The position numbers and the translations under genes are program-made. From NCBI RefSeq assembly GCF_035084215.1, contig NC_090348.1:44578001-44642000 (forward strand): DNA of 64,000 bases. The letters are read 5' to 3'. Source of the DNA: Heptranchias perlo (taxonomy: Eukaryota). Positions 28,281 through 28,410 of the stretch are shown one piece after another. Under the pieces are notes generated by a model. The model searched no databases. It worked only from the letters and a program-made list of their open reading frames with translations, and was not told the DNA's origin. Position 1 is the stretch's first letter, and each line of letters starts with the position of its first letter.

Positions 28281-28410
28281 TTATACCGGATACGGAGACA
28301 AACAGAACCATAACTGTGCCGAGTGGTCGAGGTATCTGATGCTGTGTATCTGGAAGTTGATCAACTCAGTCCATAAAATGTTTACCCAGTGACACTTTGG
28401 ACGTACATGT
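28281..28410 (-). CDS. TMEM209: TMEM209 copy B candidate terminal exon 15 (diverged, extended)
   Basis: Long pyrimidine tract ending TTCCAG. The correct phase gives [43 protein letters not shown], with VNILW at the same offset as in the recalled human G-RVNLGLSGVNILWIFGE*. Confidence 0.55.

What the first reader, a model, noticed from the sequence alone, without database searches (positions are those of the whole stretch)
28281..28410. TMEM209 ends in a remodelled last exon with a novel C-terminal extension
Seen: exons 2-14 are intact, but I found no canonical exon 15 between 28.2 and 31.5 kb. The best candidate has a strong acceptor and correct phase and reads [42 protein letters not shown], against the recalled conserved RVNLGLSG-VNILW-IFGE*. 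Removing one A and adding one G turns KCHW into SVTG, which looks like a compensated frameshift. Inference: the duplication breakpoint lies just after VNILW and the tail is borrowed from the antisense of the CPA 3' flank, giving a chimeric paralog. The decay exceeds the ~1% copy divergence, which hints at an older junction kept in a homogenised array.
Basis: partly seen in the sequence, partly recalled or inferred. Interest (0 to 1): 0.7.

Follow-up and report, generated by a model that had tools for sequence, protein, structure and literature searches.

The report
Duplication scar mimicking a lost exon
The supposed new last exon is the seam of a 45-kb tandem duplication in a shark, patched with 121 bases that match a neighbouring gene's intron; the duplicated nuclear-pore gene TMEM209 lacks its true last exon and likely makes a shortened protein by reading on into the preceding intron.

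Summary
The acceptor, phase and peptide at 28410-28281 are real, but this is not a remodelled exon 15. The locus is a two-unit, 44.7-kb tandem duplication. The intact exon 15 exists once in the 264 kb examined, 16.5 kb left of the window; the breakpoint lies in intron 14, 207 nt before it. The seam reads: intron 14 | 3-nt microhomology | 121 nt matching CAX1 intron 1, with a 30-nt micro-inversion that puts the acceptor on this strand | blunt join | carboxypeptidase A 3' flank. VNxLW is already present, behind a stop, in the intronic source. RNA contigs of 4 of 4 runs (one sample) continue from exon 14 unspliced into intron 14 with copy-B alleles; one contig crosses 28410 unspliced. RefSeq ends this copy in GYVVIFRLP*. 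The likely product lacks the conserved last 17 residues; a similar human truncation sequesters Nup210 (PMC12967149). One oddity remains: the acceptor sits in exact register with VNxLW, about 0.001-0.01 by chance per 3.3 kb. Verdict: known kind of event, modest interest.

The parts
28348..28468 (-). 121-nt junction insert, same orientation as its source in CAX1 intron 1 (G000:C27:44549346-44549465, 12.3 kb beyond the intron-14 breakpoint); 5 substitutions and 1 inserted base against the source once the inversion is allowed for
28466..28468 (-). 3-nt microhomology (TCT) joining TMEM209 intron 14 to the insert; left end of unit B
28396..28426 (-). Micro-inversion of a 30-nt block bounded by short inverted repeats; brings a pyrimidine tract and AG onto the TMEM209 strand
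28281..28410 (-).
28371..28385 (-). VNILW codons; the source reads VNVLW directly after an in-frame stop
28434..28436 (-). Competing upstream acceptor (score 8.8), same frame, would give G-FVL-stop
28165..28347 (+). CPA 3' UTR and flank (AATAAA at 28210); right end of unit A, joined bluntly to the insert at 28347/28348
14766..28164 (+). Carboxypeptidase A, copy A, 10 exons mapped (first exon not mapped), open frame; copy B at 58810-72823 also open
31499..31572 (-). TMEM209 exon 14 of copy B; donor identical to that of copy A
31471..31498 (-). Read-through tail in intron 14, (G)YVVIFRLP then stop; C-terminus of RefSeq model P0088
30329..31498 (-). Proximal intron 14 of copy B, covered by unspliced RNA contigs with copy-B alleles; likely 3' UTR of the truncated copy
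30194..30294 (.). Copy-B-only insertion: 88-nt young dispersed repeat plus a 12-13-nt target-site duplication; carries two AATAAA on the TMEM209 strand (30287, 30274); candidate polyadenylation signal (inferred)
31499..52887 (-). TMEM209 copy B, 13 coding blocks, 4 coding differences from copy A in 1662 nt (T447N, L519F, 2 silent)
28466..64000 (.). Duplication unit B (continues to window-equivalent 73175)
1..28347 (.). Duplication unit A (starts at window-equivalent -16244; the intact exon 15 lies just outside it at -16451)

Best explanation
28281-28410 is the seam of a 44.7-kb tandem duplication whose breakpoint cuts TMEM209 in intron 14, so the window copy has no exon 15 and likely ends by reading through the exon-14 donor to a stop 9 codons later, giving a predicted 554-residue protein without the conserved last 17 residues. 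Shown: two units, breakpoints, the 121-nt insert matching CAX1 intron 1, the micro-inversion, unspliced copy-B contigs in intron 14. Inferred: the seam arose by replication template switching (intron 14 to CAX1 intron 1 through TCT, about 120 nt copied, then back 57 kb to the CPA flank); the inversion arose between short inverted repeats and made the acceptor by accident; the transcript is cleaved at AATAAA signals brought in by a later 88-nt repeat insertion, upstream of the candidate acceptor, which is therefore seldom reached; the duplication gave a second complete CPA gene and TMEM209-B came along as a passenger. Untested: whether the short protein is made, and whether it behaves like human TMEM209 1-548 (envelope foci that trap Nup210).
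For: Units and breakpoints. Canonical exon 15 found once in 264 kb, outside the unit. Junction resolved to the base; inversion; source intronic in CAX1. No extended homology between the source flanks and the exon-15 region, only a shared repeat and short hits. RefSeq P0088 ends GYVVIFRLP and P0121 is canonical; these are the only 2 members of their cluster. Contigs from 4 of 4 RNA-like runs (spliced records 20 and 26 show RNA) cover parts of 30329-31528 unspliced; X5 record 8 (1064 nt) has 0 differences from copy B where copy A differs by 21 substitutions and 9 indels. X5 contig 28209-28937 bridges 28410 unspliced with 0 differences, no joint or loose end. B-only repeat with two AATAAA. On the minus strand the first hexamer after the candidate's stop is 1.76 kb away, beyond the antisense CPA last exon.
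Against: The exact register of acceptor + 8 codons + VNxLW is unlikely by chance (0.013 per 3.3 kb with any AG, about 0.0006 with a good acceptor), and three of the seven changes against the source (inversion, one inserted base, TAG to TGG) are the ones an open in-frame exon needs. Exon 15 resembles the source weakly at DNA level (23-144 of 5000 random windows score as high). All RNA runs are one sample, are contigs only, have no recorded tissue or strand, and cannot show a 3' end; 256 joints were hidden. Intron-14 contigs could be unprocessed RNA.
Confidence: 0.8

Rival explanations
1. The seam built a new terminal exon (inversion makes the acceptor, one inserted base sets the frame, a stop is lost) that is spliced to exon 14 in some tissue or stage and restores a VNxLW motif at its normal distance, with a 25-residue longer tail.
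For: Acceptor of median strength and best in the intron; exact register rare by chance; three of seven changes are enabling; insert divergence 5 of 120 exceeds the 0.93% background (P 0.005).
Against: The only contig covering 28410 crosses it unspliced; copy B reads through in 4 of 4 runs; a competing AG 24 nt upstream gives a stop after 3 codons and no polyadenylation hexamer lies within 1.76 kb; 0 of 153 TMEM209 proteins carry the tail; against the 2.2% divergence near the breakpoint the insert's excess is not significant (P 0.13); the site was chosen for its likeness, so the chance figures are post hoc.
Confidence: 0.08
2. The 121-nt source in CAX1 intron 1 is itself an old, decayed duplicate of exon 15, and the junction kept the older orientation.
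For: The source reads VNVLW, identical to this species' exon 15, 14 of 16 bases with both differences silent; DNA test P about 0.005-0.03.
Against: Likeness is confined to about 16 bases; no flank homology within 2.2 kb of the source against 6.8 kb around exon 15; the site lies past the CAX1 promoter and first exon; a VNxLW-level match is common (42 in 528 kb).
Confidence: 0.05
3. One reading: a remnant of exon 15 was duplicated, broken just after VNILW and decayed by a compensated frameshift.
For: Peptide register and the CPA-derived tail.
Against: The stretch is 95% identical to CAX1 intron 1 over 121 nt and the unit ends 207 nt before exon 15.
Confidence: 0.02
4. Two-step origin of the same seam (compatible with the read-through reading): a 57-kb duplication held all of TMEM209 and the CAX1 promoter, and a later 12.3-kb deletion at TCT removed exon 15, leaving 121 nt.
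For: The insert is collinear and in the expected orientation.
Against: Needs the deletion to stop 121 nt from the duplication join; short templated pieces with microhomology and blunt joins are described for single replicative events (PMC5120786, passages).
Confidence: 0.3
5. Assembly artefact: two haplotypes joined in tandem.
For: 0.93% divergence could be allelic.
Against: A 729-nt contig from a separate run spans both joins with 0 differences; the seam has a structure that mis-joining would not produce.
Confidence: 0.02

Closest known systems
Tandem duplication with templated insertion (FoSTeS/MMBIR-type junction; PMC5120786, passages read)
   Same: Short microhomology, a templated piece from nearby, a blunt join.
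   Different: A germline event in a shark, old enough to show 1-2% divergence; mechanism inferred from one haplotype.
ARHGAP11B (PMC5142801, abstract read)
   Same: Partial duplication leaving a C-terminally altered paralog.
   Different: There a new splice site is shown to be used and the new tail to matter; here the candidate acceptor is not seen used and the tail is likely an 8-residue read-through.
TAF8s (PMC12871804, abstract read)
   Same: Truncated form ending at an intronic polyadenylation site tied to a repeat insertion.
   Different: TAF8s is an isoform of a single gene with protein evidence; here it is a separate copy that cannot splice to exon 15, and the cleavage site is only inferred.
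Human TMEM209 1-548 truncation (PMC12967149, passages and one discussion section read)
   Same: Loss of the very C-terminal conserved residues (13 there, 17 here) with both membrane helices kept.
   Different: That was an overexpressed construct in HeLa cells; the shark copy is natural, adds YVVIFRLP, and has no protein evidence.
Micro-inversions by short-range template switching (PMC8755829, PMC8604942; search listing and start of abstracts only)
   Same: A short block inverted between inverted repeats.
   Different: Direction (which copy inverted) is not established here.

Membership tests
TMEM209 (PF09786) | PF09786 match over the whole protein | tested here: met
   P0088 445.6 bits, profile 9-557 of 571; P0121 475.2 bits, 9-570
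TMEM209 (PF09786) | Conserved C-terminal RVNLGLSGVNxLWIFG[ED] | tested here: not met
   Present in copy A and 26 of 32 chondrichthyan rows printed; absent from copy B
Remodelled (homologous) exon 15 | DNA descent from exon 15 | tested here: not met
   95% match to CAX1 intron 1; only a 16-base island resembles exon 15
New terminal exon in use | Spliced exon 14 to 28410 transcripts | tested here: inconclusive
   The one covering contig is unspliced; contigs of one sample cannot show absence
New terminal exon in use | Acceptor of ordinary strength in the right phase | tested here: met
   Score 10.1, rank 21 among 40 local acceptors; phase fits
New terminal exon in use | Nearby polyadenylation signal | tested here: not met
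   First A[AT]TAAA on the minus strand is at 26517, 1.76 kb on; variant hexamers not scanned
Templated-insertion tandem duplication | Head-to-tail units | tested here: met
Templated-insertion tandem duplication | Junction insert matching nearby DNA, with microhomology | tested here: met
   121 nt, 12.3 kb away, TCT at one join, blunt at the other
Templated-insertion tandem duplication | Single event rather than duplication then deletion | not testable with these tools
   One haplotype only
Intronic-polyadenylation truncation | Unspliced read-through of the donor in stable RNA | tested here: met
   Copy-B-specific contigs in 4 of 4 runs of one sample; nascent RNA not excluded
Intronic-polyadenylation truncation | Mapped cleavage site | not testable with these tools
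   Contigs do not show ends; candidate AATAAA at 30287 and 30274

The most novel reading that the evidence does not exclude
A duplication seam assembled, from a neighbour's intron, a working replacement for the lost last exon: a micro-inversion made the acceptor, one inserted base and a lost stop opened the frame, and the conserved VNxLW motif reappeared at exactly its normal distance from the splice site without descent from exon 15, so that some tissue makes a nucleoporin with a convergently rebuilt C-terminus.
Probability: 0.07. Interest if true: 0.75.

Novelty: new member of a known kind. Interest (0 to 1): 0.3.

Why it matters
As found, it is a well-resolved example of known processes: a partial duplication, a templated junction and probable intronic termination. 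Its value is that the shark copy would be a natural version of a TMEM209 truncation that traps Nup210 in human cells (PMC12967149), in a protein only recently placed in the pore's inner ring (10.64898/2026.02.20.707084, passages), so it can be tested directly. If the junction exon were used, it would be a rare case of a lost conserved motif being rebuilt from unrelated DNA. A full-text search for TMEM209 + duplication + shark found 0 papers; that is the only search behind 'not in print', and supplements were not searched.

Tried and rejected
Protein search with the 42-residue candidate tail: no candidate; the tool calls this weak evidence. Runs X6 and X7 laid 0 contigs on 28150-28620, X6-X8 had no depth at 27980-28309 or 29630-29959; lack of cover proves nothing and is not used as evidence. 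No listed holder is on record as RNA; X5-X8 are guessed RNA. The 31499>28410 joint is not among the 15 joints listed, but 256 were hidden. X9 (another organism, about 55% read) had contigs on the CPA flank and on intron 14 only, each running on into unlike sequence; it did not cover the insert, so the ancestral orientation of the inversion stays open. AlphaFold2 of copy A with 49 sequences gave mean pLDDT 37 and was not used; no fold search was run. Idea that the source is a 48-nt coding exon: not in the CAX1 model P0154. A first DNA test with longer flanks was not significant (386 of 2992 and 233 of 2995 random windows). Paper search for the CPA pocket residue 268 found 0 papers. Earlier findings: none returned.

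Full report
Setting. The window is G000:C27:44578001-44642000. I fetched 100 kb on each side; coordinates below are window coordinates, negative to the left. Two RefSeq models that the tool labels Heptranchias perlo map to the locus: P0088 to the window's TMEM209 copy and P0121 to a copy further left.

Observation. With a weight matrix from 40 local acceptors picked automatically (some probably wrong; minimum score -3.6), the acceptor scores 10.1 against a median of 10.2 and is the best AG in this copy's intron 14; the true exon-15 acceptor, which was in the training set, scores 13.7. A second AG 24 nt upstream scores 8.8 and would give G-FVL-stop.

Structure of the locus. Self-comparison of 264 kb shows one tandem duplication: unit A from -16244 to 28347 and unit B from 28466 to 73175. 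A genome search with the junction found no further copies, with the caveat that such searches are lower bounds. Each unit holds 13 coding blocks of TMEM209 and a carboxypeptidase A gene. The canonical exon 15, RVNLGLSGVNVLWIFGE, is found once, starting at -16451, 207 nt beyond the left end of unit A. Copy B therefore lacks exon 15 and its 3' UTR.

The seam. On the minus strand, intron 14 matches copy A up to 28466. After a 3-nt overlap (TCT), 28468-28348 matches -28535 to -28654. At 28347 the CPA 3' flank begins with no overlap. The source lies in intron 1 of the cation/H+ exchanger gene CAX1 (exon 1 at -25376, next mapped exon at -37049). BLAST gives 83% identity because a 30-nt block between short inverted repeats is inverted; allowing for that leaves 5 substitutions and 1 inserted base in 120. 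The inversion is what places the pyrimidine tract and AG on the TMEM209 strand. In the source, the only acceptor-like AG upstream of VNVLW (6.6) leads to a stop, the other five score below zero, and VNVLW follows an in-frame stop. So of the 42 residues, the first 21 come from CAX1 intron 1 and the last 21 from antisense CPA flank. Microhomology, templated pieces and blunt joins are described as signatures of replicative template switching (PMC5120786, passages); that mechanism is inferred here, and duplication followed by a 12.3-kb deletion fits too.

Is VNILW chance? A segment scoring as well against exon 15 occurs 42 times in 528 kb, 0.26 expected in the 3.3 kb searched. In exact register after an AG there were 6 hits in 528 kb: the true exon, the candidate and 4 others (two of them duplicates). 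Simulation gives 0.013 per 3.3 kb, and about 0.0006 with a good acceptor from 1 hit in 6 Mb. At DNA level, 23-144 of 5000 random windows match exon 15 as well as the source does and 93-150 as well as the junction does, by scoring scheme; the flanks share only a repeat and short hits. A first test with longer flanks was not significant. This is an uncommon coincidence, and three of the seven changes are those an open exon needs. The site was selected for its likeness from a very large scan, so I read it as chance but do not exclude use or an older exon-like origin.

What is transcribed. Four runs of one sample are guessed RNA; records 20 and 26 join exons, which supports that. In 4 of 4 runs, contigs cover parts of 30329-31528 unspliced, and in three of them listed pieces run across the exon-14 donor. 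The longest (X5 record 8, 30465-31528) has 0 differences from copy B where copy A differs at 21 substitutions and 9 indels, and no copy-A letters are listed for this stretch. The spliced record 20 differs from the window at 1, 2 and 1 places in the three exons where A and B differ at 1, 2 and 1 places, so it is probably copy A. In X5 one 729-nt contig covers 28209-28937 with 0 differences, bridging both joins and 28410 unspliced, with no joint or loose end. That confirms the seam in a separate run; its strand is unknown and it may be CPA read-through. Contigs drop rare forms and show no ends, so rare splicing is not excluded. RefSeq ends copy B in [12 protein letters not shown], the stop being at 31473-31471. 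None of 153 TMEM209 proteins has the candidate tail; 94 of the 120 that have ESG in their last 70 residues end in VNxLW.

A candidate 3' end. Copy B alone carries a 101-nt insertion at 30194-30294: an 88-nt repeat (at least 42 other matches at 94-100%) with a short target-site duplication and two AATAAA on the TMEM209 strand. Two more hexamers, shared in number with copy A, lie at 29603 and 29191. All four precede the candidate acceptor, whereas the first hexamer after the candidate's stop is 1.76 kb on. Cleavage at the repeat is inferred, not shown.

Age and homogenisation. The units differ by 382 substitutions in 41132 aligned columns (0.93%; columns near indels dropped), from 0.13% to 2.19% per 2 kb, the highest beside the left breakpoint; heterogeneity is strong (chi2 117, df 22). 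All 4 TMEM209 coding differences lie in residues 447-519 and all 6 CPA differences in the last exon. The insert's 5 of 120 is high against 0.93% (P 0.005) but not against 2.2% (P 0.13).

Likely effect. TMEM209 is a transmembrane nucleoporin; a human construct lacking only the last 13 residues formed envelope foci that sequestered Nup210 (PMC12967149, passages and discussion section 12). Its C-terminal domain is modelled linking two NUP62 subcomplexes (10.64898/2026.02.20.707084, passages), and the worm domain is needed for envelope breakdown (PMC13692120, passages). Copy B would lose 17 residues and gain 8. Whether it is translated, degraded or acts on Nup210 is untested; my fold was uninformative. 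The simplest reading is a passenger of a CPA duplication: both CPA copies are open over the 10 exons mapped and both sets of last-exon alleles occur in X5 contigs.

Comparison and verdict. It resembles ARHGAP11B in being a partial duplicate with a changed end (PMC5142801, abstract) and TAF8s in a likely repeat-linked intronic end (PMC12871804, abstract), but it is a new instance of known kinds, not a new kind. No supplements were read. Interest 0.3; the bold reading (a rebuilt exon in use) about 0.07.

Noticed in passing
window 27980-28164 and L018:8639-8823: The two CPA copies are identical over 1007 coding bases but differ at 6 sites in the last exon, 4 changing residues: by bovine numbering V253/F259/T268/M301 (left) against G253/Y259/A268/L301 (right). 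From recall, 253 and 268 line the S1' pocket and Thr/Ala268 separates CPA1 from CPA2; not confirmed by a call (one search found no paper). Possible divergence in specificity.
   Followed up: partly
window 30194-30294: Young 88-nt repeat with target-site duplication, inserted inside an older repeat in copy B only; related pieces border retroelement-like open frames nearby. Family not identified by a call.
   Followed up: partly
L015:4565-4624 to L011 (window-equivalent -25376 to -68617), minus strand: CAX1 (cation/H+ exchanger with YccF and Na_Ca_ex domains, P0154) lies directly downstream of TMEM209.
   Followed up: partly
L017/L016 (window-equivalent -21791 to -19932), window 11676-12376 and 55666-56366: A 700-nt retroelement-like piece, 97-98% identical, present as an inverted pair left of the window and once in each unit.
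   Followed up: no
window 5295-5972 and 33325-33738; L018 near 8826-8986: Copy-specific insertions or deletions between the units, including about 160 nt in the right CPA copy's 3' UTR that appears in an X5 contig.
   Followed up: no
window 34696: G>T in the spliced TMEM209 contig of X8 only, not an A/B difference: allele or error.
   Followed up: no
L019 (window-equivalent 86277-86476): A run of 200 N, 13 kb right of unit B; further units hidden there are not excluded.
   Followed up: no
G000:C7:83633649-83706047 and C13:13655968-13725276: Other M14 carboxypeptidase genes also appear as local clusters of three or more copies.
   Followed up: no
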